Shown here piece after piece: positions 13,497-54,928 of a stretch of DNA of 64,000 nucleotides. Under the pieces are notes generated by a model. That model was given only the letters and a program-made list of their open reading frames with translations. It was not told the DNA's origin and made no database searches. This stretch comes from Poseidonia sp. (lineage in GTDB: Archaea > Thermoplasmatota > Poseidoniia > Poseidoniales > Poseidoniaceae): NCBI GenBank assembly GCA_016779705.1, contig JADHNB010000001.1:1434-65433 (forward strand). Reading direction: 5' to 3'. The position numbers and the translations under genes were made by a program. Each line of letters begins with the position of its first letter. The first letter of the stretch is position 1.

Positions 13497-14108
13497 TCAG
13501 ACGGGAAGGATGTGGCCCATGCGGGAGGCTTTGGTCGACATGTAGGACCGGTTGTGCGAGCATTGGCCCACGATGATGGGCACTCGGTTGGCGACCCCAA
13601 TCCCGTTGTCAATGAGTTGCTGACGCTTGTCAGGATTGTTGGTCACGAGTTCGACTTGATTGACCCCCATCGCGTACAACATCTCGGCGGCGAAGTCGTA
13701 TCGTCGGGCGTCGCCAGGTAGGCCGAGCGCGAGATTGGCGTCCAAGGTGTCCAAACCGTCGTCTTGGAGGGCGTAGGCCTGCATTTTGGCGAAGAGGCCG
13801 ATGCCACGGCCTTCTTGCCGGAGGTACACAACGGCGCCGTGTCCGGATTCCTGGATGGCCTTGAGCGAGGCGTCGAGTTGTGGCCCGCAATCACAGCGTT
13901 GAGAGCCGAAAGCGTCGCCGGTGAGGCATTCAGAGTGGAGGCGAACGAGCGGCGTGCCCTGAGAAAGATCGCCCACGTAGACGATGCAGTGTTCCTTGCC
14001 GTTGTTGGGGTCCCGGAATGCACGGATGCGGAATTCGCCGTGTTTAGTGGGCAAAACCGCATCGGCTTCTGGAGCTTGTGTGATGGTTGGTTGTGGGGCT
14101 CCTAGCAT
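13497..14108 (-). CDS. ribA: GTP cyclohydrolase II (bacterial-type RibA)
   Basis: RLHSECLTGDAFGSQRCDCGPQLDASL and YLRQEGRGIGL match the GCH-II zinc-binding and catalytic motifs. Start taken at the Met 26 nt downstream of the TATA box. Confidence 0.8.
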   Translation of the reverse strand: MLGAPQPTITQAPEADAVLPTKHGEFRIRAFRDPNNGKEHCIVYVGDLSQGTPLVRLHSECLTGDAFGSQRCDCGPQLDASLKAIQESGHGAVVYLRQEGRGIGLFAKMQAYALQDDGLDTLDANLALGLPGDARRYDFAAEMLYAMGVNQVELVTNNPDKRQQLIDNGIGVANRVPIIVGQCSHNRSYMSTKASRMGHILPV

Positions 14109-14127
14109 GTTAGAAAATTTGCTCAAT

Positions 14128-14188
14128 TTGTATATAAACACTCGTCTTTTTCCTTTGCTGGGTTGAAACCGTTCTTGATATACTCATC
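14128..14188. promoter_or_regulatory. Divergent promoter region with two TATA-like boxes: TTTGTATATAAAC serving ribA (minus) and CTTGATATACT serving nudix (plus). Both are about 24-26 nt from leaderless start codons.
   Basis: AT-rich 60-nt island in a 60% GC background, read directly. Spacing is consistent with archaeal TATA-to-TSS distances. Confidence 0.35.
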
Positions 14189-14204
14189 CGTTGAAAAAAT
14201 AACG

Positions 14205-14696
14205 ATGTCCCAACTGCTCTGCGACCTCGGCGTGGCTACCCGAGTGGTTCGGGACGGCCACATTCTCCTCGTCCAAGAAGCCAAGGGGCGCCATGCAGGC
14301 CGATGGGGCCTGCCCAAGGGCAACGTTGACGACAACGAGAGTCCCGAGAACGCCGCCCTACGAGAGCTTCGAGAAGAAACGGGCTTGGAAGGGCAACTGG
14401 TGGGATTGGCCGGCGTACGGACGGCGTTGCAAAGCAACGGCCCTGCCGTATTCCTGTGTTACGAAGCCACGGTGACCGATGACCAGCTCCAAACCGACGG
14501 CGACGAAATTGCCTCAGCCAGGTGGTTTTCGCTGGACGGGTTGAAGTCTCTTGAGTGGGTTTCTGAAACGATGCATCAACTCGCCGTTGACGGCTTTTGC
14601 CGGTCGACCGTCCTGGTCAACCAACGGGGCTTGACGCCCCGAACCAACCCGTATGCGGTGTACCGTGCCGCTGGTGCCCACGGTAGGGGGCGGTGA
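14205..14696 (+). CDS. NUDIX hydrolase
   Basis: Nudix box GRWGLPKGNVDDNESPENAALRELREETGL (GX5EX7REUXEEXGU). Confidence 0.75.
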   Translation: MSQLLCDLGVATRVVRDGHILLVQEAKGRHAGRWGLPKGNVDDNESPENAALRELREETGLEGQLVGLAGVRTALQSNGPAVFLCYEATVTDDQLQTDGDEIASARWFSLDGLKSLEWVSETMHQLAVDGFCRSTVLVNQRGLTPRTNPYAVYRAAGAHGRGR

Positions 14697-16246
14697 GACC
14701 CATGATTCCCCCTGCCCGCCTCCAAATTCACGGCGAAACCAACCCGGAAGGCGAGGTGGTTGTGTACTGGATGACGGCCGCCCGTCGCCCGTACTGGAAC
14801 CACGCCTTGCAGCATGCCATTGACCTCGCCAAGGAACACCACCTTCCGTTGGTGGTGATCGAGTGCTTGGCCCTCCACCACCGCTGGGCCAACGACCGCA
14901 TTTCCACCTTCGTGCTTCAAGGCATGGTGGACAACCGGGAGAGTTTTGCCAATTCAGGCGTGACCTACATCCCCTACGCTGAAACCAAGCGAAAGGAGGC
15001 TTCCGGGCTGCTTCAAGGCTGGCTCAAAAACGCCCGAGCCTGTGTGATCGATGACTACCCGACCTATTACCCAAAGCACGTCCTCAACACGGCGATCACC
15101 GTCAAGCCGTGTGAAGTTCACGTGGTGGACTCCAACGGATTCATGGCCATGAGGGCCCAAGGTCGGGACTTCTCAACGGCCTACTCGCTTCGTCGGCACC
15201 TCCACAAAACCATCCGCGAACACATGCACGAATTTCCAGAAGCGAAACCGTTGGCCAACGCCGCCGGCCTGCCGTGTGTGGATGCCTCGTTGGTGCAACG
15301 GGTTTTTGACGAAACCAACACCCCCATGACCCCGTATGAGTTTATTTGGCGCGTCGCTGAAGGTGGCGACGTGGGCCTTCAAGCCCTCTCGACGCTCAGC
15401 ATTGACCACGATGTGCCGCCGGTGGTCGGCAAACGAGGAGGCCATCTCGAAGGCCGACGCCGTTGGAAGGAGTTCTTCTCGAACCGGTTGGCCTTGTATC
15501 ACGAAAAGCGTAACGAACCGCAAGAGCGTGGCGCAAGCGGGTTGTCACCGTGGCTGCATTTTGGCCATTTGAGCGTCCACAACATCCTCCACGAAATCTT
15601 TGCCCATCACGGTTGGGACGTGAGTCTGGTCAATGCCCCCAACGACGGCCGCCGACAAGGTTGGTGGGGGTTGCCTGAACCGGTCGAAGCCTTCCTCGAC
15701 CAAATCATCACGTGGCGTGATATCGGCTTTATCCACTGCGCCATGATCGAGAACCACACCGATTACGAATCCTTGCCGGCTTGGGCCATCACCACGCTGG
15801 GCGAGCACGAGAACGACGAACGGCCCTACCTCTACACCTTCGAGGAATTTGAAAACGCCCAAACTCACGACCCGTTGTGGAACGCTGCCCAACTCCAACT
15901 TCGACAAGAAGGCATTATTCACAATTACCTCCGCATGCTGTGGGGCAAGAAAATCCTCGAATGGACGCCAAATGCCGAAATCGCCATGGAATGGATGATC
16001 GCCCTCAACGACCGATGGGCATTGGACGGTCGGGACCCCAACTCCTACACCGGCATCGGTTGGGTGCTCGGCAAGTTTGACCGAGGCTGGACCGAACGGG
16101 CGGTCTACGGGAAAATCCGTTGCATGACAAGTGACTCAACGGCTCGAAAATTCAAAACCAAAGGCTACGTTGCAAAATACACCAGCGGCACATCCCAGGC
16201 CGCGTTGCTCGGCTCGGGACCCAACTTCTACTCAACCCACCAGTGA
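14693..16246 (+). CDS. phr: Deoxyribodipyrimidine photolyase, class II CPD photolyase type
   Basis: Class II signatures GLSPWLHFGHLS, LWNAAQLQLRQEGIIHNYLRMLWGKKILEW, LDGRDPNSYTGIGWVLGKFDRGWTERAVYGKIR. GTG start overlapping the nudix stop. Confidence 0.85.
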   Translation: MRPMIPPARLQIHGETNPEGEVVVYWMTAARRPYWNHALQHAIDLAKEHHLPLVVIECLALHHRWANDRISTFVLQGMVDNRESFANSGVTYIPYAETKRKEASGLLQGWLKNARACVIDDYPTYYPKHVLNTAITVKPCEVHVVDSNGFMAMRAQGRDFSTAYSLRRHLHKTIREHMHEFPEAKPLANAAGLPCVDASLVQRVFDETNTPMTPYEFIWRVAEGGDVGLQALSTLSIDHDVPPVVGKRGGHLEGRRRWKEFFSNRLALYHEKRNEPQERGASGLSPWLHFGHLSVHNILHEIFAHHGWDVSLVNAPNDGRRQGWWGLPEPVEAFLDQIITWRDIGFIHCAMIENHTDYESLPAWAITTLGEHENDERPYLYTFEEFENAQTHDPLWNAAQLQLRQEGIIHNYLRMLWGKKILEWTPNAEIAMEWMIALNDRWALDGRDPNSYTGIGWVLGKFDRGWTERAVYGKIRCMTSDSTARKFKTKGYVAKYTSGTSQAALLGSGPNFYSTHQ

Positions 16247-20224: not shown

Positions 20225-21521
20225 AGGCCATCGTTCTTTCTCGACGTCGGTGCTTGTGTTGCTGCTTTTGACGACGGCGGCTCCCTTGGTTTCCGTTTCG
20301 GGGGAGCTGACCGCCGAGGAACGCCTTGCGGAGCGAGGCCTGACCGTTCTTGCCCTTCGAAACGACACCATCGACACCGACCAAGACGGCGACATCGATG
20401 CGGTCCGCGTCGTGGTGGTGCTCAACTCAACGGCGTCCCAAAACGACCTCATCGTGAAACTCCGCGGTCTTCACAAGGAACGAGAGGTGCTTGAGGTCAC
20501 CGAAGTTTCGTTTTCCATCCAAACCAACATCACGCTCGTTTACGATGCCTGGTCAAGAGGCGAACATCGCCTTCGCTTGGATTTCTTTGACGACGACGGC
20601 GAATTCATCGCTTCGTATCCGCTGCCAAACTTTGTCTTAGTGCCCGCCCTTCAGGTGCCGACGGTTCAACTCAACTTGAACGCCGGCGCCACCTTGCAAA
20701 CCGGTGAGGCGTGTGAGGTCGTTCGTGTGTTTAGCGACGAAACCGGTCCACGTTACGGGGAAAGCGGGACACGAACCTTCACTGGAGCCCCCTTCAGCGT
20801 CCTTGATGCGCATGGAACGCTGGATTGTTCGTCGTGGCCTGCCGGCGACTATGCCCTGCGAGAAACGTACCGCAACGGGCTTGGGCAAACCGCCGAAGCC
20901 ACCCTGAATTTCACCATCACCAACCGCCCGGCCCCCCAATTCACCATCGCTGTTTCCGGTCACGGTAACACCACCAACACACCCTGCAGTCTTGCGATGA
21001 AAACGGCCGGAGTCGATGCGGGATGGACCAAGGTTTGGCGAGTCAAAGGGGCGGTTGTTGAAGGCGCTAACACGTCCACGCTGGATTGTTCACAACTACC
21101 AGCTGGAGCCTACCTCGTCACGTTGGAGGTCATCAACGACAAGATGATCACCTCAACGGAGGGCGTCAATCTCATTCGCATGCCTTCTCCAGAGGCGACG
21201 CTCAACCGTACTCAAACGGGCCCCTCGGCCTCCTTGGGCGAAGACACGCCAACCGAATCCGTCGGTTGGCTGTCCATTGGGGTGCTGGCCTTGCTGGTCA
21301 CGTTGGTGGTCTTCGTGGCGATGGCTCGAGACCGTCGCCTCGAACCCCTTGAACTCCCGGCCTTGGGCCCGATTGCACAAGTGTTGCCTGATGGGAGTCC
21401 TGACACCATGGGCCTGCCCACCATCACGGATGACCAAGGCGTGTTGTGGCGCAAGCACCCCGACGGTCGGTTGGACTGGTGGGACAGCGAGTGGCAAGTT
21501 TGGCACGGGTGGGACGCATGA
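20208..21521 (+). CDS. Secreted/surface glycoprotein-like protein with N-terminal signal peptide, many N-x-S/T sequons, C-terminal TM helix and a Trp-rich tail.
   Basis: Signal MKKVREGHRSFSTSVLVLLLLTTAAPLVSVSG. Sequons NDT, NST, NIT, NFT, NTT, NTS, NRT. TM WLSIGVLALLVTLVVFVAMA. Overlaps the upstream gene by 17 nt. Confidence 0.5.
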   Translation: MKKVREGHRSFSTSVLVLLLLTTAAPLVSVSGELTAEERLAERGLTVLALRNDTIDTDQDGDIDAVRVVVVLNSTASQNDLIVKLRGLHKEREVLEVTEVSFSIQTNITLVYDAWSRGEHRLRLDFFDDDGEFIASYPLPNFVLVPALQVPTVQLNLNAGATLQTGEACEVVRVFSDETGPRYGESGTRTFTGAPFSVLDAHGTLDCSSWPAGDYALRETYRNGLGQTAEATLNFTITNRPAPQFTIAVSGHGNTTNTPCSLAMKTAGVDAGWTKVWRVKGAVVEGANTSTLDCSQLPAGAYLVTLEVINDKMITSTEGVNLIRMPSPEATLNRTQTGPSASLGEDTPTESVGWLSIGVLALLVTLVVFVAMARDRRLEPLELPALGPIAQVLPDGSPDTMGLPTITDDQGVLWRKHPDGRLDWWDSEWQVWHGWDA

Positions 21522-23073: not shown

Positions 23074-23121
23074 ACGCCTGAATCAACAATGATTTTCAAG
23101 GTCGGAGGCTGTGAGGCGTCC

Positions 23122-26100
23122 ATGTCGGACGCCGATACGCAATCGTTTCACATCAAAAGCGTTCTGCTGGTGCTTCTGTTTCTGCTGTCCATCGCCAGCC
23201 CAATCGTCCCTGCATACGGGCCGTCTGAGGTCCTCGAGCAAGCCTCTCCATCGGCTCGCATGGCGCCGTTTAACCTCGCTTCTGGCTACGGCCATGAACT
23301 GGCCGGGACGACGGTGACCGTTGACGGCCTCGACAACGCCTTGGTGAGGGAGGAATCGATGTTTGACTACTGGATCACCACCGAACTCAACAACTCCAGC
23401 ACCGAGCATCACGGCACTCCCGACATGAAACTCACCCGGGCTGACATGGAGCACTACTGCTGGTCGACCGAAGAAGGGTCCATCCGAACCGCCATTCACC
23501 GCCCGAATGGGGCATGGAGCACGACCTTGGTTGACACCGTTGCCGCCACGAATACCTCATCGTTGGTTGATTGCGCCATTGCCGTGACGGGGAACGAGCT
23601 TCCTCGGGTGCTTTATGCAGACGGTGCTGACCTGAAAATGGGGCGGTACGCACGCGAGAGCGCCACGTATTACGACGGGCCACGTTGGCACACTCGGACC
23701 ATCATGGAGAATGTTGAGCCAACCCACCTTGAACTTGAAATCACGCCTGAAGGCGTGGAGTGGGGCTTGATGCGCACGGTGGACGGTGCCTTGCACCAAG
23801 TGAACTTCAGCGGGGCGTACTGGACCTCCTTCCTGCTGGATGTTGGCCCCATAGGGGACGATTTCGAATTGGCCATGGATGACAACGGCACCGCTCACGT
23901 TCTCTACACGCGTTCCAACGCCCAAGAAGTCGTGCTCCTGCGCGTCAGCGGCATGGAACGTGACGTCCGGATTCTCGAGCGAAACAGCGACCTGGTGGAC
24001 GCTTTGGGCATGGACCTTGATGCCAATGCCGTCGAGCAAATCGCCACCGCCACGCAAACCGGGCCGTCGTTTTCCATCAACCTCATTCGTTCGCTCGCTG
24101 GGCAAGACGCCGGACGTGTTGACCCCGTCCCCCTGGATGGACGAGAAGGCGTTGAAGATGAAGAAGAAGGTTCGTTGTTGATGGCGGATTTCAACAACGA
24201 CGGCTTTGATGATTTGGCCATCGCCACCCCCACCGCTGACCTCGTTGGTTTTACCGACAACGGCCGAGTGGACGTTTACTTCGGTTCTTCCGCAGGGCTG
24301 AGTGCGACGCCCGATGCCATCCTCGCCGGCGCCAACGACAACGCCCGATTCGGTCAAGGCTTGGATGCCGGGGATTACAACCACGACGGCATCGTTGATT
24401 TGGCCGTTGGCTCCCCTGGTTGGCAACCAACCGGTCAAACCGATCTTCACAACGGCCAGGTGAGCGTTCATCTTGGCGGGCCCTCTGGCCTTCAATCCAC
24501 ACCATGGTGGACCGCGAACGGTTCGGAAAACGAATCGCTAGGGGCTGTCCTGACCACCTTGGAGCGAACCTCAGAAGCCGACGGATTGGCTGCGGCGGCC
24601 CACGGCTACACGCTCGAAGTGAGCGAATCTCAAACCAACGTCGGCAAGGTGGTGCTGTACGGCGGTGGAACCGATGCGATGGCCATGGAGCGAAACCTCA
24701 CTCAATCCAAGTCCGGACCGATGTTTGGCCGCTCGTTGGAAGGCTGCGATATCAACGGTGACGGTTTGGATGAGTTGATCGTGGGCAACACGGGAACTTT
24801 TGCCAGTTCCCTGGGCTATTCGTCGATCGAGTACTACTACGGCAACGCCTCCGGCTACGCAGGAACCCCCGAGCACACGCTTGAATCGCTCTCCCAGGGT
24901 CGTCTGTTTGGCCACAACATCGTCTGCGCTGGCGACCTCAACGGTGACGGGTACAACGAACACCTGTTGACCGAACCGTTCAACAGCACGCAAACCGTGT
25001 TTGGCACCGGTGTCTTGTGGCTCTACAACGGCACCTCCGGTTCGCTCCCTTCCGAAGCGGACTGGAAATACTTCCCCAGCATCGGCAATCAAAAAATCGG
25101 CGAAGCCATTTCACCTGCAGGCGACATCAACGAGGATGGGTACGATGACCTCTACATGAGCAGCCAAATGGGGTCGAAAGCCGGCCGATTGGAGATTTTC
25201 CTCGGTTCAGCTAACGGATTGCGGTCCGACAAACAGTTGCTGGCCGATGGAAACGGGTCCGAACAACTCGGCTTCCGCCTCGCCAGCAACGGCGACCTCA
25301 ACGGCGACGGTTTGAGTGAAGTGGTCTTTTCCCAGAGGACCTTCGAACGAGGCGACGCCTTTGCGCTCAATTACGTGATCCTCTCCGAGCGAGATTGGGA
25401 ATCCATTTCGTTTGAGTACACCGGGTCCATCTCCGCCCTGGACCTCGCCACGGCGGCACGAGGCGAGACCAGCATGGCGTTCGTTCATCAGGACAGCCTC
25501 CGTTCGTACGTTGGAAAACTGGAGCACATGAACGACGGCACTCCCTCCGGTCAATGGGTTCATCAAACCGTTGAACGCACCACCACGTCGAACGTCACCG
25601 TTGAATTTGGCGTTCGTTCCTCGGGCCAACCCTTGGTGGTCGTTGAGGACGACGCTTCGATCCGTTTGCATTCAACCACTTCCATGACCGCCGTCCAACA
25701 AGAGGTGGCGACCACCGGGACCATGGGTCAATTTATCGGTTCGAACGTCAACCAAGATAACGAACAAGTTCTTGCTTACACTTCGGGGGCCGGCAATCAA
25801 ATCTTTGCAACCGAGCAATCTTCAACGGGCTGGTCGACCGATTTGGTGCGGACCAACGCCGCGTTGGCCAACGGCATTGAAGTGCTCTTTGACAGCGCCG
25901 ACGTCCCTCGTTTGGTTTACCGCCACAACACCACGAGCCAACTTGAGATGGCGGTCGGTGGGAGCAGTTGGTCCCTGACGCCCTTGGGCAATGCAGGGGA
26001 CGCCGTTTCGTTGCAACACCCCGCGGTGATGCTTGCCAACGACACCCTCGCCGTGGCCCTCCTCTCCTCCAACGGAAGCGCCACCAACCTTGCCCTGTGG

Positions 26101-29100
26101 ATGCATGACGGCACCGCACTCAGCGAACAAATCATCGCCAACGCCAGCGATGTCGAGGCTGAACTCGGTCTCGCGGTGCTGGCCAACGGCTCATTGCTCG
26201 TGGCTTCGCTGAATCAGTCAGGCGCACTCCGGTTGTATGAACAGTGGCCCGGTGACACCGCTTGGCAAACCCACACCCTCGTTCAGCCCAGCGGCACCAA
26301 CGGGGAGTATCGTCTCGATCTTGAGGGCGGCACAACGCCCGTCTTGGCGGTTCGTGCCAACGCCGTCTCCTCCATCTTGATGCCCAACGGCACCGGCGAG
26401 TGGAAGGCCGTTGCGGAGCGTCCAGCGGCGGCTCACGACGGGGCGTGGGACGTTTTGGTGGTCAACGACCATCTCTTGTTGTTGACCAGTGATGAAAGCA
26501 CCCATCAACTGACCGTGAACACGCTTGAACTCAGCAGCGTTCAGCAAAGTTACTCTCCTTGGATGTCGGCCAAGTTTGGTGACGTCCTCGTCACTCACAA
26601 AGTGGATGCTGCATTCGACACGAACGGCACGGTGCACATGGGGTACTGGGACGAGGTTGACAACGACGCTCTTTTGTTGCGACTTTACGTTGACCAAGAC
26701 CGGGACCTCGTGTTTGACCTGATGGACGACCTGCCCACGGTGGGCAACCAATGGGCGAACAGTGACGGCGACAATTTCGGTGACAACCCGCTGGGGCCGC
26801 TGCCGGACCAATGCCCCACCGTGGCTGGGCTTTCGTCCTACATCATCTTTGGATGCGTTGATTACGACACCGATGGTTTCACCGACAGCATTGACGGATG
26901 CGATTCCCAAGGCGGGACGTCATGGATTGACCGATTTGGATGCGAAGACCTCGACCAAGACGGATGGTCCGACAACGGCGCCACCTACTACGGAGGTGAC
27001 GTGTACAAAGGAAACTGGAAGCAGGCCCTTGATACCGACGGCGACGGCTTCGGCGATAATCACGGCGTTGATTGCTGTTCAACGGTTCTCGACCCCAACG
27101 CTGGACCCGGTGACCTGTTCCCGTACTTGGCCTCCCAATACGCCGATTACGACGGTGACGGGTTCGGTGACAACGACACCGACGCCGTGCACGGAGACTT
27201 CTGTCCCTGGGATTACGGTGAATCGTGGCGAGACCGAAACGGATGTTTGGACTCGGACGGCGACGGTGCAAGCGATCCGTCTGCTGAAGGGACCTTCTTC
27301 GAGTGGAACACCAGCCGAGGGGCGGATGTTTGGCCCTTTGACGCCACACAGTGGAAGGACACGGACGGCGACGGCTACGGTGACAACCAATCGGAGAATG
27401 CGACGTCTCCCGACCGCTTCCCGCAACGCATTGTGGCGGCCAACGACACCGACGGCGACGGCTTCCCGGACAATTGGACCGCCTTTGCCTCGCTCGACGA
27501 TGACGGGGACGGGGTGCAAAACCTCGACGACCGTTGCGTGGATTCCGACGCCGCCTTGGCCATCGACGCCGAGGGCTGCGACACGGACCAAGTGGCCAAC
27601 ACCACGTTCCCGAGAACCTCATACAAAGCCGGGCTTGAACTTGACCAATGCCCCGAAGAATGGGGCAACTCCAGCCTCCCGGTCAAAGGCTGTCTTGATT
27701 CCGACGGTGACGGCTACACCGACCAATACACCTACACGGTGAACGAGACGACGGGGCTGCGAGAAGGCCAAACCGGCGATGCCTTCCCCTTCATCAAATC
27801 GCAAGTTCAAGACACCGACGGTGACGGATTTGGCGACAATCCCGCCGGCGAACAAGGCGACCAGTGTCCCTTTGAACCCGGTGTACTCAACGGCACCGAA
27901 GGGGTCGGCTGCCGCCTCATCGATGTCAACGACGACGATGGCGACGGGGTCATCAACGACGTGGATGTCCTGTGCCCGAACAGTCCGTTGGGCGAGCCGG
28001 TGAACGAGGAGGGTTGTGCTCAATCCGAACTTGACGATGACGATGACGGCGTCAAGAACAACGCCGACCTCTGTGCAAATTCCCCGGTCGCAACAGCCGT
28101 GGACGAGGATGGATGCACCAACGAACAGCGAACCTCCGACTCTGACGGGGACGGATTGAACGACCCTCAAGACCGCTGTCCTGGAACCGAGGCGGGTGCT
28201 GATGTTGATGAGAACGGTTGCTCTCAAGGGCAACGAGACAGCGACGGGGACGGTCTCTCCGACCTTGACGATGCCTGCGACGATACCCCGCCTGGTTTCC
28301 CCATTCTCGCCAACGGTTGCACCGACGAGAGCGCTCTCACCGTCGATCTTGACGGTGATGGATATGCAGGCCTCTACACCTACGACCTCGACCCGGACAC
28401 GGGGCTTCACGTCAATCAAACGGGCGATGCCTTCCCCAGTGACCCCACCCAATGGTTTGACCGGGACGGCGACGGCTACGGTGACAACAGCGATGGTACC
28501 AATGCAGACCATTGCCCCGACGAAAACGGGACGTCCTACATCGATTTCCTGGGTTGTTACGACGACGGTGACGGTTGGAGCGATGCCAATGAACCCGAAG
28601 CCTTGCGAGGCAATCCAACCCAATGGAAAGACACGGATTTCGATGGTTTCGGGGACAATTGGGGCGACCCCGCATGGACGGCCCTGCGAGATCCGTCATG
28701 GCCCGGAGAGTTTGTTGAAGGGGCCACCAACGCCGACTTTTGTCCCAAAACGACCTTTGGCTTGCAAGTCGATGACGAAGGTTGCCATCCCTCCGAACGA
28801 GATTCGGATTTGGACGGCGTGATGGACGATTCCGACAACTGCCCCGACGACCCCAAAGGCGTGGACGGTTACGAAGACGGTTGCCCCTACATTCCTTTAT
28901 CCGGCGACGGCGATGAGGGCCTGTTCGGCGTTGATGCTGGCACGCTCATGGTCATCGCTGGCGGCGGCGTCTTGGGCATCTTGGTCTTGATGTTGGTGGT
29001 GCGCCTTGCGCGGAGGGGAGGTGGTGACGACGAGGACGACGACGATTACGACGACTTTTTCGACGAAGACAACGAAGAAGAGAGTTTCCTCGACACGTTG

Positions 29101-29595
29101 GACGCCAAGCGGGCTGCACCAACCCGGGCTCGTCCATCGGCCAATCAACGGGCTTCTGCCCCCTCCGGTCGCGGCCCCAGCGCCGGGCCCTCAACCCCCG
29201 GACCCGGGGGTCCTCCAAAGCGAAGCGGTGCCGGTCCTCCTCAACGCGGAGCAGGCGGTCCGCCCCAACGTGGCCCCGGAGGCCCACCTCGTTCTTCGGA
29301 TGAACCGCCCCGTCAATCCTCGTCGGCCTCCGCACAAAAAGTTGCGAAGAAGAAGTCCGTGACGGCGGTCGACGAGAGCCCTTCAGCCAAGGTTCGTAAA
29401 GCGAAGATCCAAGTTGACCTCTCCATCTTTGAAGACTGGCAAGCTGACGACCGTGAGTCGGCCGTTGATTGGGTCGTGGGCGCCTTCGGCGACGGTGACG
29501 AAGAGCGTACCGTGCTCATGCAATTGCAAGAAACAGGGTGGACCGCTGAACAATCTCGGGCCATTTGCAACCTTGCGAAGAACAAAGGGGCTTGA
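23122..29595 (+). CDS. Giant cell-surface protein (about 2157 aa). Order of parts: signal peptide, N-terminal region, FG-GAP/integrin-alpha-like beta-propeller repeats, long beta-rich middle, about 25 TSP3-like Ca-binding repeats, TM anchor, acidic plus Pro/Gly-rich cytoplasmic tail.
   Basis: Signal MSDADTQSFHIKSVLLVLLFLLSIASPIVPAYG. FG-GAP motifs (DFNNDGFDDLAIATP, GDYNHDGIVDLAVGSP, CDINGDGLDELIVGN, GDLNGDGYNEHLL, GDINEDGYDDLYMSS, NGDLNGDGLSEVVFSQ). TSP3-like units (DTDGDGFGDN, DSDGDGLNDPQDRCP, etc.). TM LMVIAGGGVLGILVLMLVV. Tail DDEDDDDYDDFFDEDNEEE and PGPGGPPKRSGAGPPQRGAGGPPQRGPGGPP. Confidence 0.8.
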   Translation: MSDADTQSFHIKSVLLVLLFLLSIASPIVPAYGPSEVLEQASPSARMAPFNLASGYGHELAGTTVTVDGLDNALVREESMFDYWITTELNNSSTEHHGTPDMKLTRADMEHYCWSTEEGSIRTAIHRPNGAWSTTLVDTVAATNTSSLVDCAIAVTGNELPRVLYADGADLKMGRYARESATYYDGPRWHTRTIMENVEPTHLELEITPEGVEWGLMRTVDGALHQVNFSGAYWTSFLLDVGPIGDDFELAMDDNGTAHVLYTRSNAQEVVLLRVSGMERDVRILERNSDLVDALGMDLDANAVEQIATATQTGPSFSINLIRSLAGQDAGRVDPVPLDGREGVEDEEEGSLLMADFNNDGFDDLAIATPTADLVGFTDNGRVDVYFGSSAGLSATPDAILAGANDNARFGQGLDAGDYNHDGIVDLAVGSPGWQPTGQTDLHNGQVSVHLGGPSGLQSTPWWTANGSENESLGAVLTTLERTSEADGLAAAAHGYTLEVSESQTNVGKVVLYGGGTDAMAMERNLTQSKSGPMFGRSLEGCDINGDGLDELIVGNTGTFASSLGYSSIEYYYGNASGYAGTPEHTLESLSQGRLFGHNIVCAGDLNGDGYNEHLLTEPFNSTQTVFGTGVLWLYNGTSGSLPSEADWKYFPSIGNQKIGEAISPAGDINEDGYDDLYMSSQMGSKAGRLEIFLGSANGLRSDKQLLADGNGSEQLGFRLASNGDLNGDGLSEVVFSQRTFERGDAFALNYVILSERDWESISFEYTGSISALDLATAARGETSMAFVHQDSLRSYVGKLEHMNDGTPSGQWVHQTVERTTTSNVTVEFGVRSSGQPLVVVEDDASIRLHSTTSMTAVQQEVATTGTMGQFIGSNVNQDNEQVLAYTSGAGNQIFATEQSSTGWSTDLVRTNAALANGIEVLFDSADVPRLVYRHNTTSQLEMAVGGSSWSLTPLGNAGDAVSLQHPAVMLANDTLAVALLSSNGSATNLALWMHDGTALSEQIIANASDVEAELGLAVLANGSLLVASLNQSGALRLYEQWPGDTAWQTHTLVQPSGTNGEYRLDLEGGTTPVLAVRANAVSSILMPNGTGEWKAVAERPAAAHDGAWDVLVVNDHLLLLTSDESTHQLTVNTLELSSVQQSYSPWMSAKFGDVLVTHKVDAAFDTNGTVHMGYWDEVDNDALLLRLYVDQDRDLVFDLMDDLPTVGNQWANSDGDNFGDNPLGPLPDQCPTVAGLSSYIIFGCVDYDTDGFTDSIDGCDSQGGTSWIDRFGCEDLDQDGWSDNGATYYGGDVYKGNWKQALDTDGDGFGDNHGVDCCSTVLDPNAGPGDLFPYLASQYADYDGDGFGDNDTDAVHGDFCPWDYGESWRDRNGCLDSDGDGASDPSAEGTFFEWNTSRGADVWPFDATQWKDTDGDGYGDNQSENATSPDRFPQRIVAANDTDGDGFPDNWTAFASLDDDGDGVQNLDDRCVDSDAALAIDAEGCDTDQVANTTFPRTSYKAGLELDQCPEEWGNSSLPVKGCLDSDGDGYTDQYTYTVNETTGLREGQTGDAFPFIKSQVQDTDGDGFGDNPAGEQGDQCPFEPGVLNGTEGVGCRLIDVNDDDGDGVINDVDVLCPNSPLGEPVNEEGCAQSELDDDDDGVKNNADLCANSPVATAVDEDGCTNEQRTSDSDGDGLNDPQDRCPGTEAGADVDENGCSQGQRDSDGDGLSDLDDACDDTPPGFPILANGCTDESALTVDLDGDGYAGLYTYDLDPDTGLHVNQTGDAFPSDPTQWFDRDGDGYGDNSDGTNADHCPDENGTSYIDFLGCYDDGDGWSDANEPEALRGNPTQWKDTDFDGFGDNWGDPAWTALRDPSWPGEFVEGATNADFCPKTTFGLQVDDEGCHPSERDSDLDGVMDDSDNCPDDPKGVDGYEDGCPYIPLSGDGDEGLFGVDAGTLMVIAGGGVLGILVLMLVVRLARRGGGDDEDDDDYDDFFDEDNEEESFLDTLDAKRAAPTRARPSANQRASAPSGRGPSAGPSTPGPGGPPKRSGAGPPQRGAGGPPQRGPGGPPRSSDEPPRQSSSASAQKVAKKKSVTAVDESPSAKVRKAKIQVDLSIFEDWQADDRESAVDWVVGAFGDGDEERTVLMQLQETGWTAEQSRAICNLAKNKGA

Positions 29596-50334: not shown

Positions 50335-51333
50335 TCATCCAAGGGCGACCATTCGGCGACAGCATTCTTCAGCGTCAATGTCGCCGTTGAGCAAGGTGTT
50401 GAGGGCTTTCGTGAACGGAATGTTCAGGTTGGCGTCCTCGGCGCGTTCAACAAACATTCGCGTGGCTCGAACGCCTTCCGCCACCATGTGCATCTCGCCG
50501 AGCGCTTCGTCCAGGGTCAAACCCGTCCCGAGTTTCTCGCCCATCGTCCGGTTTCGGCCGTGCGGCGAGGTCGCCGTGACATACATGTCGCCCAAGCCAG
50601 CAGGGCCGAAGGCGACCTCAGCCCGAGCACCCAATTCCGCTAGCAACAAGCACCCTTCCTTGAATCCCGACATGAAAATGGCGGCTTTCAGATTGTCACC
50701 GCCCAAATCGCCGACCTGCTTGAGCCCATCAACCAAGCCGCAGGCCAAGGCGACGACGTTTTTGTACGCCCCCCAAAGTTCCGCCCCCACCGGGTCGCTG
50801 GCTGGATGCAGGATGAAACTCGGTGTGCTCAAGGTTTGTGCAAGTCGTTGAGCGATGGCCTGGTCTTCACTGGCGACCAAGGCGGTCGTCATCACGCCTC
50901 CAGCGGCTTCAGGAGCGATGGTGGGGCCGGTCAGCACGGCCAGGGGGTTCGTCTTCCCCTCTTCTTTGAGCCGAGTGTGGATGGCTTCGGAGATCAACCG
51001 CTTCCCAGGCGCAAGACCTTTGGCGAGGTCGAGGAGCACGTGCCGTGGTTGAAGGTGGGGAAGAACATCTTCCAAGACGTCCAAAATGACCGATGAAGGG
51101 ACGGCCAACACCACAATTTCGCTGCCTTCAATGGCTTCCTCCAGACGCATGGTCACGTCAAGTCCTGGGACGGGATGATGGGGGAGGTACTTTTCGTTGA
51201 CCTCGTTCATGGTGATGGTTTCGTACACTTCTTGCTCAATGGTCCAACCTTTGACCTTGTGGCCTTCCAACAACCACAATCGCGCAATGGCAGTCCCCCA
51301 ATTGCCCAAACCAAGAACTGCCACGTGTGCCAT
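50335..51333 (-). CDS. gpsA: NAD(P)H-dependent glycerol-3-phosphate dehydrogenase
   Basis: MAHVAVLGLGNWGTAIARLW (N-terminal Rossmann), GpsA-family core, 332 aa. TATAAA box about 33 nt upstream (51362-51371). Confidence 0.85.
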   Translation of the reverse strand: MAHVAVLGLGNWGTAIARLWLLEGHKVKGWTIEQEVYETITMNEVNEKYLPHHPVPGLDVTMRLEEAIEGSEIVVLAVPSSVILDVLEDVLPHLQPRHVLLDLAKGLAPGKRLISEAIHTRLKEEGKTNPLAVLTGPTIAPEAAGGVMTTALVASEDQAIAQRLAQTLSTPSFILHPASDPVGAELWGAYKNVVALACGLVDGLKQVGDLGGDNLKAAIFMSGFKEGCLLLAELGARAEVAFGPAGLGDMYVTATSPHGRNRTMGEKLGTGLTLDEALGEMHMVAEGVRATRMFVERAEDANLNIPFTKALNTLLNGDIDAEECCRRMVALG

Positions 51334-52719: not shown

Positions 52720-53448
52720 ATGGAGGCCCACGTGAAACGAGCGGTGGACGCGTTCAAGCAAGGGCTCCCCGTCTGCTTGTTTGATTCGGAAAAACGGGAA
52801 GGTGAAACCGACCTGTTGTTTCCTGCTTCCACGGCCTCGCCCGCTACCATGCGCCAACTTCGAAAGGACTGTGGCGGACTACTCTTTCTCGCCATCGGCG
52901 ACGAGGTGGGAGAGTGTTTCGGGTTGCCGTTTCTTCAAGACCTTCACACCACCGATGACGCCGTTGACCGCCATCCCGTCCTGCATCATTTGGTGACCAA
53001 TGACCTGCGTTACGACGCTCGTTCGGCCTTCACGTTGTCCCTGAATCATCGAGACACCTACACAGGAATCACCGACCACGACCGAGCCCTGACGACCCGA
53101 AGGTTTGCTGAGTTAGCCTCTGCTTGCTTAAGCGAAGGCGTGGCCGGCGAGCCGGCGATGAAACGGCTAGGTGAAGAGTTTCGAACCCCCGGCCACATTC
53201 CCGTGTGCCGCGAGGCCAAAGGCGGTCTTGCGGTCCGGCAAGGCCATACTGAACTGGCCGTGGGGCTGGCTCGCTTGGCCCAAACGACGCCCGTCGTGAT
53301 CGGTGCCGAAATGTTGCAGCCCGATGGCGACCACGCCTTGGCCGTCGCCGAGGCGCGTGCATGGGCTGCACAACGCAACATTCCGTTTTTGGAAGGTGCC
53401 GATGTGGTGGCCGCCCTGCAAGGCGAAGCGGCACCGTCATCCTCTTGA
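52720..53448 (+). CDS. ribB: 3,4-dihydroxy-2-butanone 4-phosphate synthase
   Basis: VCLFDSEKREGETDLLFPA and GHIPVCREAKGGLAVRQGHTELAVGL are collinear with E. coli RibB motifs ([42 protein letters not shown]). Confidence 0.85.
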   Translation: MEAHVKRAVDAFKQGLPVCLFDSEKREGETDLLFPASTASPATMRQLRKDCGGLLFLAIGDEVGECFGLPFLQDLHTTDDAVDRHPVLHHLVTNDLRYDARSAFTLSLNHRDTYTGITDHDRALTTRRFAELASACLSEGVAGEPAMKRLGEEFRTPGHIPVCREAKGGLAVRQGHTELAVGLARLAQTTPVVIGAEMLQPDGDHALAVAEARAWAAQRNIPFLEGADVVAALQGEAAPSSS

Positions 53449-53481
53449 AGCGACGCCCCAACCCCTCAAACAGGTGCTTGC

Positions 53482-53922
53482 ATGAAACGAATCATGGCGG
53501 TTGGCGTGTTTGACCTGCTGCACGCTGGGCACCTTCACTATCTCGAACAAGCCAAAGCTCTCGGCGAACACCTCACCGTTGTCGTGGCTCACGATGACAC
53601 GGTTCGCCAGCGGAAGCATGAACCCGTCACCAACCAAGACCTCCGACGACGCATGGTGGCGGGCCTCAAACCCGTTGACGAGGTGGTCATTGGAAACCCA
53701 CCTGACGTCCCGATTTTCGATATTCTCCCTGTTATTCAACCGGATGTGATCGCCTTGGGCTATGACCAAGAACATGCGGAAGAGAACATTCGACAGGCGC
53801 TCACCCAACGCGGTTTTGCTTCCATCGAGGTGGTTCGTGTTGAAGGCCTGAGCGACGATTTGGACGGAACTCGGAAAATTATTGCCCGTATTTTGGAACG
53901 GGCTGAAAAGCAGGGGGCGTGA
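53482..53922 (+). CDS. ribL: Cytidylyltransferase-fold FAD synthase (archaeal RibL-like)
   Basis: MAVGVFDLLHAGHLHYLEQAKALG (HxGH nucleotidyltransferase motif), 146 aa, embedded in the riboflavin operon. Confidence 0.7.
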   Translation: MKRIMAVGVFDLLHAGHLHYLEQAKALGEHLTVVVAHDDTVRQRKHEPVTNQDLRRRMVAGLKPVDEVVIGNPPDVPIFDILPVIQPDVIALGYDQEHAEENIRQALTQRGFASIEVVRVEGLSDDLDGTRKIIARILERAEKQGA

Positions 53923-54527
53923 AGGTGTTTACGGGCATTGTTCAAGGCACGGGACGGGTGCTTTCCGTGGTCACGACCCCGGCGGTGTGGACGTTCGGCA
54001 TTGAGCTGCCCGATGCAGAAGGATTGCTTCGAGGGGCGAGCGTGGCCGTCAACGGCGTGTGTTTGACGGCCACCACCATTAACGGCAACCAAGTCTCGTT
54101 TGACGTGATTCCCGAAACCCTCCAGCGCACCAATCTGGGTTCACTTGAGGTGGGTTCACCCGTTAACATCGAACGGTCGCTCAAGATGGGGGACGAATTG
54201 GGAGGCCATCTGCTCTCAGGGCACGTCATGGACGTGGGCGTGGTGACCCGTGCTGTGCCGGTTGGTGATGGGCGGGACCTGACGATCAAATGTCCTGAAA
54301 ACCTGCTCAAATACATTCACGAAAAGGGCTACATCGGCCTGAACGGGGCTTCGCTCACCGTCGGTCAATGCATCGGCGCCGAACTCAACGTGCATCTCAT
54401 TCCAGAAACCCTTCGCCTCACCACGTTTGAGGAGGTCGCGGTGGGCGACCAAGTGAACATTGAAATCGACGCCATGACCCAAACGGTGGTTGCCACCGTT
54501 GAGCGAATGATGAAACAGGAGAACTGA
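53919..54527 (+). CDS. ribE: Riboflavin synthase, bacterial/eukaryotic type (alpha chain)
   Basis: MFTGIVQGTGRV N-terminus and two lumazine-binding repeats (GASVAVNGVCLT / GASLTVGQCIGAELNVHLIPETL) collinear with E. coli riboflavin synthase. Confidence 0.85.
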   Translation: MKVFTGIVQGTGRVLSVVTTPAVWTFGIELPDAEGLLRGASVAVNGVCLTATTINGNQVSFDVIPETLQRTNLGSLEVGSPVNIERSLKMGDELGGHLLSGHVMDVGVVTRAVPVGDGRDLTIKCPENLLKYIHEKGYIGLNGASLTVGQCIGAELNVHLIPETLRLTTFEEVAVGDQVNIEIDAMTQTVVATVERMMKQEN

Positions 54528-54538
54528 GAGGGACCACC

Positions 54539-54928
54539 ATGGGCAAGCGGGTTGGCTTTGTTTGCGGTTCGTTTCACCGCGATGAAGTGGAACGCATGCT
54601 GGCCTTTGCCACGGAAGAAGCGGGGCTTCTTGAGTTGACCGTTGGCGAAGTCGTCTGGGTGCCAGGCTCGATGGAAGTGCCGCTGGCCTTGGACCGTATG
54701 TTGGCAACGCACGACGCAGCTGCCTGCTTGGGGATCATCGAAAAAGGTGAGACGCAGCATGGTTTAGCGATGGGCCAAGCGGTGATCAAGACCGTGTTGG
54801 ACCTTCAACTCAAACACGACAAACCCATCGGGCTCGGCATCATCGGCCCCGGTGCAGAACCCCACCACATCGAACCTCGACTTGAGCCCCACGCCCGTGC
54901 GGCCGTACGGGCGGTGCTTCACGGTTGA
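54539..54928 (+). CDS. ribH: 6,7-dimethyl-8-ribityllumazine synthase (short archaeal-like form)
   Basis: VGFVCGSFHRDEVERM, VPGSMEVPLA, GIIEKGETQHG, KPIGLGIIGPG match lumazine synthase core motifs; 129 aa. Confidence 0.8.
   Translation: MGKRVGFVCGSFHRDEVERMLAFATEEAGLLELTVGEVVWVPGSMEVPLALDRMLATHDAAACLGIIEKGETQHGLAMGQAVIKTVLDLQLKHDKPIGLGIIGPGAEPHHIEPRLEPHARAAVRAVLHG

What the first reader, a model, noticed from the sequence alone, without database searches (positions are those of the whole stretch)
52720..54928. Mosaic riboflavin operon: archaeal RibL and short RibH flanking a bacterial-type riboflavin synthase, with a bacterial RibA elsewhere
The ribB-ribL-ribE-ribH order contains a riboflavin synthase whose sequence is collinear with the E. 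coli/B. subtilis alpha-chain enzyme (MFTGIVQGTG..., two lumazine-binding repeats). It is not the unrelated archaeal riboflavin synthase. In addition, ribA at 13497-14108 is a bacterial GTP cyclohydrolase II, not archaeal ArfB/GCH-III. The FAD synthase, however, is the archaeal cytidylyltransferase type (RibL). This suggests lateral replacement of two steps of an archaeal pathway.
Basis: partly seen in the sequence, partly recalled or inferred. Interest (0 to 1): 0.6.

Follow-up and report, generated by a model that had tools for sequence, protein, structure and literature searches.

The report
Mosaic riboflavin genes in marine archaeon
A Marine Group II archaeon makes vitamin B2 with a mix of archaeal-type and bacterial-type enzymes; this mix is real and old in the lineage, but it is an ordinary case of an already documented kind of gene borrowing.

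Summary
The window comes from a Poseidoniales (Marine Group II) archaeon. It carries ribB-ribL-ribE-ribH at 52720-54928 and an unlinked ribA at 13497-14108.

RibB is closest to the Methanocaldococcus enzyme. The RibL candidate is closest to a Thermoplasma protein. RibE is a two-repeat riboflavin synthase of the E. coli-type subfamily (NF009566). It is about 52% identical to Enterobacterales and Neisseria enzymes and 36-40% to the classical operon-type RibE sampled from five bacterial phyla. RibA is a GTP cyclohydrolase II.

All 80 reference Poseidoniales species loci returned carry the arrangement (73 show the full four-gene order), so the acquisition is old and not peculiar to this genome. 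The short RibH is not plainly archaeal. It forms a clade with 100% bootstrap support with short bacterial lumazine synthases, which usually lie just downstream of an E. coli-type ribE. This suggests that ribE-ribH crossed domains as a pair, though the direction is unresolved. The bacterial origin of RibA is shown only at family level.

The genes are already annotated in GenBank. Bacterial-type riboflavin enzymes in archaea (Rodionova 2017) and mass bacterial gene import into this lineage (Deschamps 2014) are published. Interest is low to moderate.

The parts
52720..53448 (+). [quoted passage not shown]
   Evidence: PF00926 at 159 bits. TIGR00506 scores 171 bits, just under its 177 cut-off. The best solved relative is M. 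jannaschii 1PVW at 164 bits; bacterial enzymes score 60 bits or less. GenBank MBL6732951.1.
53482..53922 (+). ribL candidate, archaeal-type FAD synthase (FMN adenylyltransferase; 146 aa, no cysteine)
   Evidence: PF01467. Best solved relative is Thermoplasma volcanium 3GLV at 96 bits over the full length. HAGH motif at residues 14-17; an HxGH motif is present in 70 of 70 orthologs. Named 'FAD synthase' in GenBank, MBL6732952.1, and by JGI.
53925..54527 (+). ribE, riboflavin synthase of the E. coli-type subfamily (200 aa from GTG 53925; the longest ORF starts at GTG 53919 and overlaps the ribL stop codon by 4 nt)
   Evidence: Two Lum_binding repeats. NF009566 at 244 bits. 52.8% identical to E. 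coli RibE. The residues aligned with E. coli Ser41, Cys48 and His102 are invariant in the A1 alignment. Start codon argued.
54539..54928 (+). ribH, short-form 6,7-dimethyl-8-ribityllumazine synthase (129 aa)
   Evidence: PF00885 at 84.5 bits; TIGR00114 at 70 bits, below its 84.6 cut-off. A profile of 16 orthologs scores 53 bits against lumazine synthases and 21 bits against archaeal riboflavin synthase 2B98. H74 and R114 are invariant; F12 is F or Y in all 16.
13497..14108 (-). ribA, monofunctional GTP cyclohydrolase II (203 aa)
   Evidence: PF00925 at 205 bits, NF001591 at 256 bits, TIGR00505 at 236 bits against a 206 cut-off. E. coli 2BZ0 scores 193 bits, and Cys61, Cys72 and Cys74 lie in the SECLTGD and RCDCG motifs shared with it. 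GenBank MBL6732922.1.
14131..14138 (-). TATA-box-like element TTTATATA, ending 22 nt upstream of the ribA ATG (suggests a leaderless archaeal-type transcript)
   Evidence: Read directly from the sequence. Its function is inferred and was not tested.

Best explanation
This is the working riboflavin and FAD gene set of a Marine Group II (Poseidoniales) archaeon.

Proposed pathway (enzyme roles follow from family membership; none was tested here): RibA converts GTP in one step to the diaminopyrimidinone phosphate that methanogens make with ArfA plus ArfB. RibB makes the four-carbon donor. The short RibH condenses the two precursors to dimethylribityllumazine. RibE dismutates lumazine to riboflavin. 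After phosphorylation by a kinase not encoded in this window, RibL adenylylates FMN to FAD.

The gene set is a mosaic. ribB and ribL are of archaeal type. ribE belongs to the E. coli-type bacterial subfamily. ribH belongs to a short-form clade whose other known members are bacterial and usually sit just downstream of an E. coli-type ribE.

The most likely history is that a ribE-ribH pair, and separately ribA, entered an early ancestor of the order from bacteria. The pair was fixed downstream of ribB-ribL, ribA came under an archaeal promoter, and all have been inherited vertically since.

Shown here: family assignments, conserved catalytic residues, conserved gene order across the order, and subfamily placement. 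Inferred: direction of transfer, transfer as a pair, and displacement of archaeal arfA/arfB/ribC.
For: Family and residue evidence.

Taxonomy: named homologs and genome titles; the exact proteins are in a 'Candidatus Poseidonia sp.' MAG.

Conservation: ribB-ribL-ribE-ribH is present in every locus long enough to show it, among 80 Poseidoniales species representatives. It also appears on six independent Logan contigs and in two deeper lineages, L088 and L091.

RibE subfamily: NF009566 is the best model for the window and for L088, L091 and P0241. The split between E. coli-type and classical RibE has 99-100% bootstrap support. The closest labelled sequences are Enterobacterales and Neisseria at 50-53%. 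The nearest metagenomic outgroups lie among LpxC/RuvABC/OmpA genes or Mfd/urease/GGDEF genes.

RibH: the Poseidoniales plus bacterial short-LS clade has 100% support. All named members are bacterial. Five of seven bacterial loci sampled have ribE adjacent or one gene away upstream.

Promoter: a TATA-like box lies before ribA. No FMN riboswitch was found.
Against: The RibE tree does not recover an exclusive clade of Poseidoniales plus module-bearing bacteria (0 of 200 replicates), so transfer as a pair rests on gene order and on the RibH clade.

The short RibH shares its architecture with haloarchaeal and M. jannaschii enzymes: no N-terminal strand, G(E/D)TxH, GIxGPG, and a short C-terminus. 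An archaeal origin for this clade, followed by export to bacteria, is therefore not excluded.

Reciprocal monophyly of the archaeal and bacterial short enzymes has only about 62% support.

No RibE or RibA from another archaeal lineage was available for comparison. Trees are NJ on corrected p-distances only. No RibA phylogeny was made. The absence of arfA, arfB and ribC from the genome was not tested.
Confidence: 0.72

Rival explanations
1. Only ribE and ribA are lateral imports. The short ribH is the lineage's own vertically inherited archaeal gene. The related bacterial short lumazine synthases descend from an archaeal export that later became linked to ribE within bacteria.
For: The short architecture and motifs are shared with a labelled haloarchaeal RibH and with the M. 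jannaschii enzyme, the latter taken from memory and checked only indirectly. In Burkholderia and Azospirillum the short copy is an accessory gene on a secondary replicon, as expected for an acquired gene (PMC12871164).
Against: Poseidoniales RibH is no closer to other archaeal enzymes (29-35%) than the bacterial short enzymes are. The bacterial clade is broad, as diverse as the archaeal one (mean identity 0.66 against 0.67), and usually tied to ribE in the same order as in the archaeon. This version needs the same two-gene arrangement to have arisen twice.
Confidence: 0.2
2. Vertical inheritance. The Lum_binding riboflavin synthase and GTP cyclohydrolase II are ancestral in this archaeal lineage, and the resemblance to bacteria reflects slow evolution.
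For: Both genes are universal in the order and sit in stable contexts. RibA is about equally similar to many bacterial phyla. Rodionova et al. list RibA and RibE in a number of archaeal genomes (PMC5397151, Table 1).
Against: RibE falls within one of two bacterial subfamilies with 99-100% support instead of branching outside bacterial diversity. RibE is in fact the fastest-evolving gene of the operon.
Confidence: 0.05
3. Assembly or binning artefact: a bacterial fragment was joined to an archaeal contig.
For: The window comes from a metagenome-assembled genome. Two contigs with this operon are filed under a 'Verrucomicrobiales' MAG.
Against: The same arrangement is found in every locus long enough to show it among 80 species-level genomes, on six independently assembled Logan contigs, and in deeper lineages. 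The ribL stop and the ribE start overlap or lie 2 nt apart. GC content is even across the window.
Confidence: 0.01
4. Recent in-place replacement of ribE in this particular lineage by a divergent allele.
For: RibE is only 62-71% identical to its closest relatives, where the neighbouring genes are 76-97% identical.
Against: RibE is the most divergent operon gene in all pairwise comparisons across the order. Mean identity within group 1 is 0.71 for RibE and 0.80-0.85 for the other rib genes, and the window is not an outlier.
Confidence: 0.02

Closest known systems
E. coli-type riboflavin synthase (RibC/RibE; NCBIfam NF009566 / PRK13020; PDB 1I8D)
   Same: Two Lum_binding repeats, colinear over 197 residues, about 52-53% identical. 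The MFTG N-terminus and the residues aligned with Ser41, Cys48 and His102 are conserved. It scores above the model's cut-off.
   Different: It is encoded in an archaeon, directly after an archaeal-type ribL and before a short ribH. In E. coli and in the bacterial locus L087 the gene stands alone. It probably starts at GTG. It evolves faster than its operon partners.
Archaeal riboflavin pathway of Methanocaldococcus jannaschii (ArfA, ArfB, ArfC, RibB, RibH, RibC, RibK, RibL; PMC5397151)
   Same: RibB and RibL are of this type. No FMN riboswitch is present.
   Different: GTP cyclohydrolase II takes the place of ArfA plus ArfB. A trimeric-type RibE takes the place of the pentameric RibC. RibH belongs to a different, short clade. 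No Thermoplasmata-type RbkR operator (TTAC-N10-GTAA) lies upstream of ribB.
Mixed archaeal/bacterial riboflavin gene sets catalogued in Archaea by Rodionova et al. 2017 (PMC5397151)
   Same: That paper lists RibA, RibD and RibE among the riboflavin genes of archaeal genomes. It also notes ribL inside riboflavin loci of Aciduliprofundum and Methanomassiliicoccus, which belong to the same phylum by my own knowledge of the taxonomy.
   Different: Poseidoniales were not among the 119 genomes studied there. The pairing of ribE with a short ribH is not mentioned in the text I could read; the figures and supplement were not available.
BsfB, the lumazine synthase immunity gene of the Burkholderia flavophos cluster (PMC12871164)
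   Same: The B. stagnalis ortholog is 53% identical to the window's RibH, with the same short form and motifs. The paper reports that BsfB keeps Phe22, His88 and Arg127 and protects E. coli from flavophos.
   Different: BsfB is an extra copy inside a phosphonate gene cluster. The Poseidoniales gene is the lumazine synthase of the riboflavin operon.
Cysteine-free RibL-type FAD synthase of Entamoeba histolytica (EhFADS; PMC11423594)
   Same: RibL-like, with the HxGH motif, and lacking the two cysteines blamed for the air sensitivity of M. jannaschii RibL.
   Different: No direct sequence comparison was made here. The Poseidoniales protein has not been assayed.

Membership tests
Riboflavin synthase, trimeric Lum_binding type (RibE / E. 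coli RibC) | Two tandem lumazine-binding repeats (PF00677), with a score above the curated equivalog cut-offs | tested here: met
   PF00677 with two matched stretches, 156.5 bits. NF009566 244 against a cut-off of 180; NF006767 201 against 155; TIGR00187 200 against 156.6.
Riboflavin synthase, trimeric Lum_binding type (RibE / E. coli RibC) | Conserved N-terminal MFTG motif, and residues aligned with E. coli Ser41, Cys48 and His102 | tested here: met
   Alignment to 1I8D. F4, T5, G6, S41, C48 and H102 are invariant in 13 sequences. The MFTG N-terminus requires the GTG start at 53925. The roles of these residues come from my knowledge of the E. coli enzyme.
Riboflavin synthase, trimeric Lum_binding type (RibE / E. 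coli RibC) | Homotrimer that converts two lumazine molecules to riboflavin | not testable with these tools
   This needs enzyme assays and determination of the oligomeric state.
Archaeal pentameric riboflavin synthase (RibC; paralog of lumazine synthase) | A PF00885-fold protein more similar to M. jannaschii riboflavin synthase (PDB 2B98) than to lumazine synthases | tested here: not met
   The profile of 16 RibH orthologs scores 52.8 bits (E=4e-13) against lumazine synthases. Against 2B98 it scores 20.6 bits (E=0.003), over 79 residues only. No other PF00885 gene was found among the window ORFs scanned.
6,7-dimethyl-8-ribityllumazine synthase (RibH) | DMRL_synthase domain above the curated thresholds | tested here: inconclusive
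   Pfam PF00885 scores 84.5 against a cut-off of 26.7, which is met. The NCBIfam equivalog TIGR00114 scores 70.4 against 84.6, which is not met.
6,7-dimethyl-8-ribityllumazine synthase (RibH) | Catalytic residues equivalent to B. subtilis Phe22, His88 and Arg127 (as listed in PMC12871164) | tested here: met
   F12 is F or Y in all 16 orthologs. H74 and R114 are invariant. The positions were mapped through the alignments. The placement of R114 opposite Arg127 is by alignment and is the least certain.
Archaeal FAD synthase RibL | Nucleotidyltransferase fold with an HxGH motif | tested here: met
   PF01467 at 64.6 bits. HAGH at residues 14-17 in the window; an HxGH motif in 70 of 70 orthologs.
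Archaeal FAD synthase RibL | Two conserved cysteines linked to metal binding and air sensitivity in M. jannaschii RibL (PMC11423594, citing Mashhadi 2010) | tested here: not met
   The window protein has no cysteine. Of 70 orthologs, 59 have none and 11 have one. The active Entamoeba enzyme also lacks them (PMC11423594), so this feature is probably not defining.
Archaeal FAD synthase RibL | Sequence similarity to the characterised enzyme MJ1179, and FMN adenylyltransferase activity | not tested
   I had no MJ1179 sequence from a tool. The nearest solved protein is the uncharacterised T. volvanium protein 3GLV at 96 bits; the species is Thermoplasma volcanium. GenBank and JGI name the protein FAD synthase or synthetase. 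The operon context supports the assignment.
GTP cyclohydrolase II (RibA) | GTP_cyclohydro2 domain above the equivalog cut-off, with the three zinc-binding cysteines | tested here: met
   TIGR00505 scores 235.7 against 205.85, and NF001591 scores 255.9. Cys61, Cys72 and Cys74 align with the E. coli SECLTGD and RCDCG motifs. That these are the zinc ligands is from my own knowledge.
Archaeal-type DHBP synthase (RibB) | Closer to the M. jannaschii enzyme than to bacterial RibB | tested here: met
   1PVW scores 164 bits over residues 4-230; the best bacterial enzyme scores 60 bits. The scores are slightly under the NCBIfam equivalog cut-offs: TIGR00506 171 against 177, and NF004437 157 against 262.
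RbkR-regulated archaeal riboflavin operon (Thermoplasmata-type operator) | A TTAC-N10-GTAA palindrome upstream of the rib genes | tested here: not met
   Only two one-mismatch matches occur in the window, both elsewhere, against 4.0 expected by chance. The Poseidoniales motif may differ. No rbkR gene was found in the window.
FMN riboswitch-controlled rib operon (bacterial) | An RFN/FMN riboswitch upstream | tested here: not met
   An Rfam scan of the whole window at gathering threshold finds only two tRNAs.

The most novel reading that the evidence does not exclude
ribE plus short-form ribH is a two-gene 'last steps of riboflavin' module that has moved between Bacteria and the ancestor of Marine Group II archaea. 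The same short lumazine synthase clade supplied the flavophos immunity gene BsfB of Burkholderia. If so, three of the riboflavin steps in Poseidoniales (RibA, RibH, RibE), not two, have a bacterial connection. The short lumazine synthases would then be a distinct, mobile and functionally interesting class, for example in oligomeric state, in pairing with riboflavin synthase, or in sensitivity to inhibitors.
Probability: 0.4. Interest if true: 0.4.

Novelty: new member of a known kind. Interest (0 to 1): 0.27.

Why it matters
The finding adds a clean, order-wide example to two documented patterns. One is the patchwork of archaeal and bacterial enzymes in archaeal riboflavin synthesis (PMC5397151). 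The other is the heavy early import of bacterial genes into planktonic Group II archaea (PMC4122925).

It has some practical value for metabolic reconstruction of an abundant uncultured ocean group. These archaea appear to make riboflavin and FAD themselves, using a cysteine-free RibL that may tolerate oxygen.

The one point that goes beyond the literature I could read is the link between the Poseidoniales short lumazine synthase, a widespread bacterial ribE-ribH pair, and the flavophos immunity gene. That link is a modest lead, not a surprise for specialists.

Tried and rejected
1. Recent allelic replacement of ribE. I raised this because RibE is far more divergent than its neighbours. I rejected it because RibE is the fastest-evolving operon gene everywhere in the order.

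2. The short RibH as a hidden archaeal riboflavin synthase (RibC). Rejected by the profile search against the PDB.

3. A Thermoplasmata-type RbkR operator upstream of ribB or ribA. Not found.

4. FMN riboswitch. None.

5. Sigma-70 promoter and terminator scan of the operon. Background level only.

6. Naming the nearest RibE outgroups through cluster look-ups. Nearly all were unnamed. I used gene context instead.

7. The single genome-collection scan returned only Poseidoniales. It gave conservation data but no outgroup.

8. Searching for a labelled archaeal RibE in the plasmid collection. None among the rows shown.

9. An exclusive clade of Poseidoniales plus module-bearing bacteria in the RibE tree. 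Not recovered.

10. Fischer et al. 2004 on archaeal riboflavin synthases, and the supplement of Rodionova et al. 2017, were not available.

11. Other riboflavin genes in the window (arfA, arfB, arfC/ribD, ribK/rbkR, ribC). None among the roughly 45 ORFs scanned against Pfam.
Full report
**What is there.**
- ribB, 52720-53448: a DHBP synthase (PF00926).
- ribL candidate, 53482-53922: a cytidylyltransferase-like protein (PF01467).
- ribE, 53919/53925-54527: a two-repeat Lum_binding protein. It scores above the cut-offs of all three NCBIfam riboflavin synthase models, best with NF009566 at 244 bits.
- ribH, 54539-54928: a 129-aa DMRL_synthase protein (PF00885).
- ribA, 13497-14108 on the minus strand: a GTP cyclohydrolase II (PF00925; TIGR00505 at 236 bits).

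RibE aligns end to end with E. coli riboflavin synthase 1I8D (195 bits). The ribE DNA reads GTG(53919)-AAG-GTG(53925)-TTT-ACG-GGC. Most orthologs have ATG directly before FTGIVQG, so 53925 is the likely start.

For ribA, the ATG at 14108 is supported by the length of most homologs. It is also supported by a TTTATATA element at 14138-14131 that ends 22 nt upstream of the ATG. This is the spacing expected, from general knowledge of archaeal promoters, for a leaderless transcript.

**Whose genome.**
Close homologs of RibE and RibA are named Poseidoniales or Poseidonia. All 80 loci returned from the species-representative genome collection are Poseidoniales or 'euryarchaeote' MAGs. The exact RibB, RibL, RibH and RibA proteins are in GenBank from a 'Candidatus Poseidonia sp.' MAG on a 75.9-kb contig. 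They already carry the functional names used here: MBL6732951, -52, -54 and -22.

The rest of the window fits an archaeon with many bacterial-like genes. It encodes a TrmB-family regulator, an RNase PH-domain (exosome-type) protein, a class II photolyase, MetH, and a bacterial-type GpsA.

**Type of each enzyme.**
RibB is far closer to the M. jannaschii enzyme (164 bits) than to bacterial ones (60 bits or less).

The RibL candidate is closest to a Thermoplasma volcanium protein (3GLV, 96 bits, full length). It keeps the HxGH motif in all 70 orthologs. It lacks the two cysteines held responsible for the air sensitivity of M. jannaschii RibL: the window protein has none, 59 orthologs have none, and 11 have one. 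The enzymatically proven Entamoeba RibL-type enzyme also lacks them (PMC11423594).

RibA has the cysteines that align with the SECLTGD and RCDCG motifs of E. coli RibA.

RibH needed care, because the archaeal riboflavin synthase is a paralog of lumazine synthase. A profile of 16 orthologs scores 53 bits against lumazine synthases. Against M. jannaschii riboflavin synthase it scores only 21 bits, over the N-terminal 79 residues. The residues matching His88 and Arg127 are invariant, and the Phe22 position is F or Y. RibH is therefore a lumazine synthase.

**Conservation.**
Of the 80 reference loci, 73 show the full ribB-ribL-ribE-ribH order. The other seven are cut by a contig end and show the part they contain. 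Sixty-nine also show the divergent AP_endonuc_2 gene upstream, 67 of these with gpsA beyond it.

The same order appears on six independent Logan contigs that carry the identical RibE. It also appears in two deeper lineages:
- L088: RibE 58% identical.
- L091: RibE 50.5% identical, GC 48%, neighbouring genes 64-78% identical, and wider synteny shared with the window.

RibA is likewise present across the order at 73-95% identity. The mosaic is thus ancient and inherited vertically. An assembly artefact is excluded.

**A discordance that dissolved.**
RibE is only 62-71% identical to the closest genomes, where the neighbouring genes are 76-97% identical. I tested whether this meant a recent in-place replacement. 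It does not. RibE is the most divergent operon gene in every comparison across the order. Mean identity within group 1 is 0.71 for RibE, against 0.80, 0.85 and 0.81 for RibB, RibL and RibH, and the window is not an outlier.

**Origin of RibE.**
In a library of 1.84 billion representatives, two Poseidoniales clusters come first (66% and 58% identity). After them every relative is 52% identical or less.

Labelled sequences rank as follows:
- Enterobacterales and Neisseria: 50-53%.
- Aeromonas and Proteus: 47-49%.
- Vibrio, Burkholderia and Bosea: 43-45%.
- Classical RibE of Bacillota, Actinomycetota, Fusobacteriota, Pseudomonas and Sinorhizobium: 36-40%.

NF009566 is the best model for every operon-linked archaeal RibE tested, and for Neisseria and Burkholderia. 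NF006767 is the best model for Pseudomonas, Brevibacillus and Sinorhizobium.

Bootstrapped NJ trees separate the E. coli-type group, including the archaeal sequences, from classical RibE in 99-100% of replicates. The archaeal sequences other than L091 are monophyletic in 76-83% of replicates. All archaeal sequences together are monophyletic in only 14-53%.

The nearest non-Poseidoniales homologs that I could place lie among LpxC/RuvABC/OmpA genes, among Mfd/urease/GGDEF genes, or in a Chlamydiales fusion protein. An archaeal gene sitting inside one of two bacterial subfamilies requires interdomain transfer. Bacteria to archaea is the simpler direction. The exact sister group is unresolved, and no RibE from another archaeal lineage was available.

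**RibH is not simply 'archaeal'.**
The best labelled matches to the short RibH are proteobacterial: Burkholderia stagnalis at 53% and Azospirillum at 51-53%. A haloarchaeal RibH is 33% identical, and ordinary bacterial enzymes are 29-34%.

The Burkholderia gene lies next to a PEP mutase gene, a BKACE-family enzyme gene and a DMT transporter gene. That identifies it as the ortholog of BsfB, the lumazine synthase immunity gene of the flavophos cluster (PMC12871164).

A profile of the two proteobacterial proteins finds a broad set of 131-142 aa relatives. Every one that carries a name is bacterial: Azospirillaceae, Rhodospirillum, Burkholderia, Paraburkholderia, Beggiatoa and Parabeggiatoa, Parasphingorhabdus, and an Uhrbacteria MAG.

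Poseidoniales plus these bacteria form a clade in 100% of replicates, relative to the haloarchaeal and ordinary enzymes. Reciprocal monophyly has only about 62% support.

The short form does share its architecture with the haloarchaeal enzyme. It also shares it with the M. jannaschii sequence. I took that sequence from memory and validated it only indirectly: it is 42% identical to the haloarchaeal RibH, against the published 45% for Haloferax versus MJ0303. Even so, Poseidoniales RibH is no closer to these archaeal enzymes than the bacterial short enzymes are.

**A shared two-gene arrangement.**
In five of the seven bacterial short-LS loci examined, an E. coli-type ribE lies upstream of the short ribH:
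- L110 and L111: 17 and 26 nt upstream.
- L112 and L114: overlapping ribH by 4 nt; L114 also has a bacterial flavokinase gene upstream.
- L113: one gene in between.

L110's RibE and RibH are 52% and 58% identical to the window's. These two genes are the only ones that L110 and L111 share with the window.

This matches the ribE-ribH half of the Poseidoniales operon and suggests the pair moved together. The mosaic boundary would then lie between ribL and ribE. The RibE tree does not resolve an exclusive clade of Poseidoniales plus module bacteria (0 of 200 replicates), so I hold this at about 40%.

**RibA.**
The family assignment is firm. The protein is 50-56% identical to enzymes from Pseudomonadota, Actinomycetota, Bacillota and Deinococcota alike. 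I made no tree and had no other archaeal RibA. Its 'bacterial origin' is therefore a family-level inference.

**Regulation and the rest of the pathway.**
- No FMN riboswitch.
- No Thermoplasmata-type RbkR operator.
- No arfA, arfB, ribC, reductase, deaminase or riboflavin kinase among the window ORFs scanned.
- Whether these genes exist elsewhere in the genome could not be tested.

**Comparison with what is known, and verdict.**
Rodionova et al. 2017 list RibA, RibD and RibE among the riboflavin genes of archaeal genomes. They describe archaeal loci that mix archaeal-specific, bacterial-type and universal enzymes, and they note ribL inside riboflavin loci of Aciduliprofundum and Methanomassiliicoccus.

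Deschamps et al. 2014 found that 29.7% of Group II/III euryarchaeal genes were acquired from bacteria. These include 416 'lineage-specific core, early HGT' clusters scattered among archaeal genes. From memory, Fischer et al. 2004 already remarked that some archaea have eubacterial-type riboflavin synthases; I could not retrieve that paper.

The finding is therefore a real, well-conserved but expected member of a known kind. The reading of RibH should be corrected. The link between ribE-short-ribH and BsfB is the only modestly new lead.

Noticed in passing
window 50335-51333 (-): A bacterial-type NAD-dependent glycerol-3-phosphate dehydrogenase (GpsA; NAD_Gly3P_dh_N/C, GPD_NAD_C_bact) lies two genes upstream of the rib operon. 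It is found there in 67 of the 80 Poseidoniales loci, at 77-96% identity. This is another bacterial-type gene fixed in this archaeal order. It bears on the debate about the membrane lipids of Marine Group II.
   Followed up: partly
L105 8001-8372 (Burkholderia stagnalis plasmid NZ_CP156687.1); L106 (Azospirillum ramasamyi): BsfB, the lumazine synthase immunity gene of the Burkholderia flavophos phosphonate cluster, and a stand-alone Azospirillum copy belong to the same short lumazine synthase clade as Poseidoniales RibH. They are 52-53% identical to it (PMC12871164).
   Followed up: partly
L110 7369-8399; L111; L112 5360-6405; L113 4318-6408; L114 5046-6396: Diverse bacteria carry an E. coli-type ribE directly upstream of a short ribH, overlapping it by 4 nt in L112 and L114. 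In L114 the pair is preceded by a bacterial flavokinase gene. This looks like a recurrent two-gene module.
   Followed up: partly
window 53482-53922 (+) and 70 orthologs: The RibL candidate has no cysteine. Of 70 orthologs, 59 have none and 11 have one. M. jannaschii RibL owes its air sensitivity to two conserved cysteines (PMC11423594). This fits an oxygen-tolerant FAD synthase in a surface-ocean aerobe, but that was not tested.
   Followed up: partly
window 53925-54527 and loci L007-L086: RibE is consistently the fastest-evolving gene of the operon. Mean pairwise identity within group 1 is 0.71, against 0.80-0.85 for RibB, RibL and RibH. The cause is unknown.
   Followed up: yes
window 13019-16246: Gene neighbourhood of ribA. 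An AhpC/TSA peroxiredoxin follows ribA on the same strand; by my reading of the translation its true start is probably an internal ATG about 10 nt after the ribA stop codon. On the other side, transcribed divergently, lie a NUDIX hydrolase (14163-14696) and a class II CPD photolyase (14693-16246). The photolyase scores 233-237 bits to the best solved class II photolyases but had no Pfam hit at E<=1e-4. I did not check whether this neighbourhood is conserved.
   Followed up: no
L023 and L037 (NZEQ01000030.1, NZEQ01000021.1): Two contigs filed under 'Verrucomicrobiales bacterium isolate ARS100' carry the full Poseidoniales gpsA-AP_endonuc_2-ribBLEH arrangement. Their flanking genes are 94-96% identical to the window's, and they carry two different RibE copies (66% and 64% to the window). 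The MAG appears to be contaminated or mislabelled.
   Followed up: no
window 3035-7642 (+) and 7680-10306 (-): MTHFR, followed by a full-length five-domain cobalamin-dependent methionine synthase (MetH, 1214 aa). Then, on the other strand, a phytoene/squalene synthase and an amine-oxidase-family flavoprotein, which could be carotenoid genes.
   Followed up: no
window 23089-29595 (+); 17708-21521 (+): A 2168-aa ORF that I did not analyse. Also two ORFs of 838 and 437 aa with no Pfam hit; from the start of their translations both seem to begin with signal-peptide-like sequences.
   Followed up: no
as a whole: The closest species-representative genome has a RibE only 71% identical to the window's. 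Unnamed metagenomic contigs reach 85-100%. For this gene, the window's own lineage is poorly represented among reference species.
   Followed up: no
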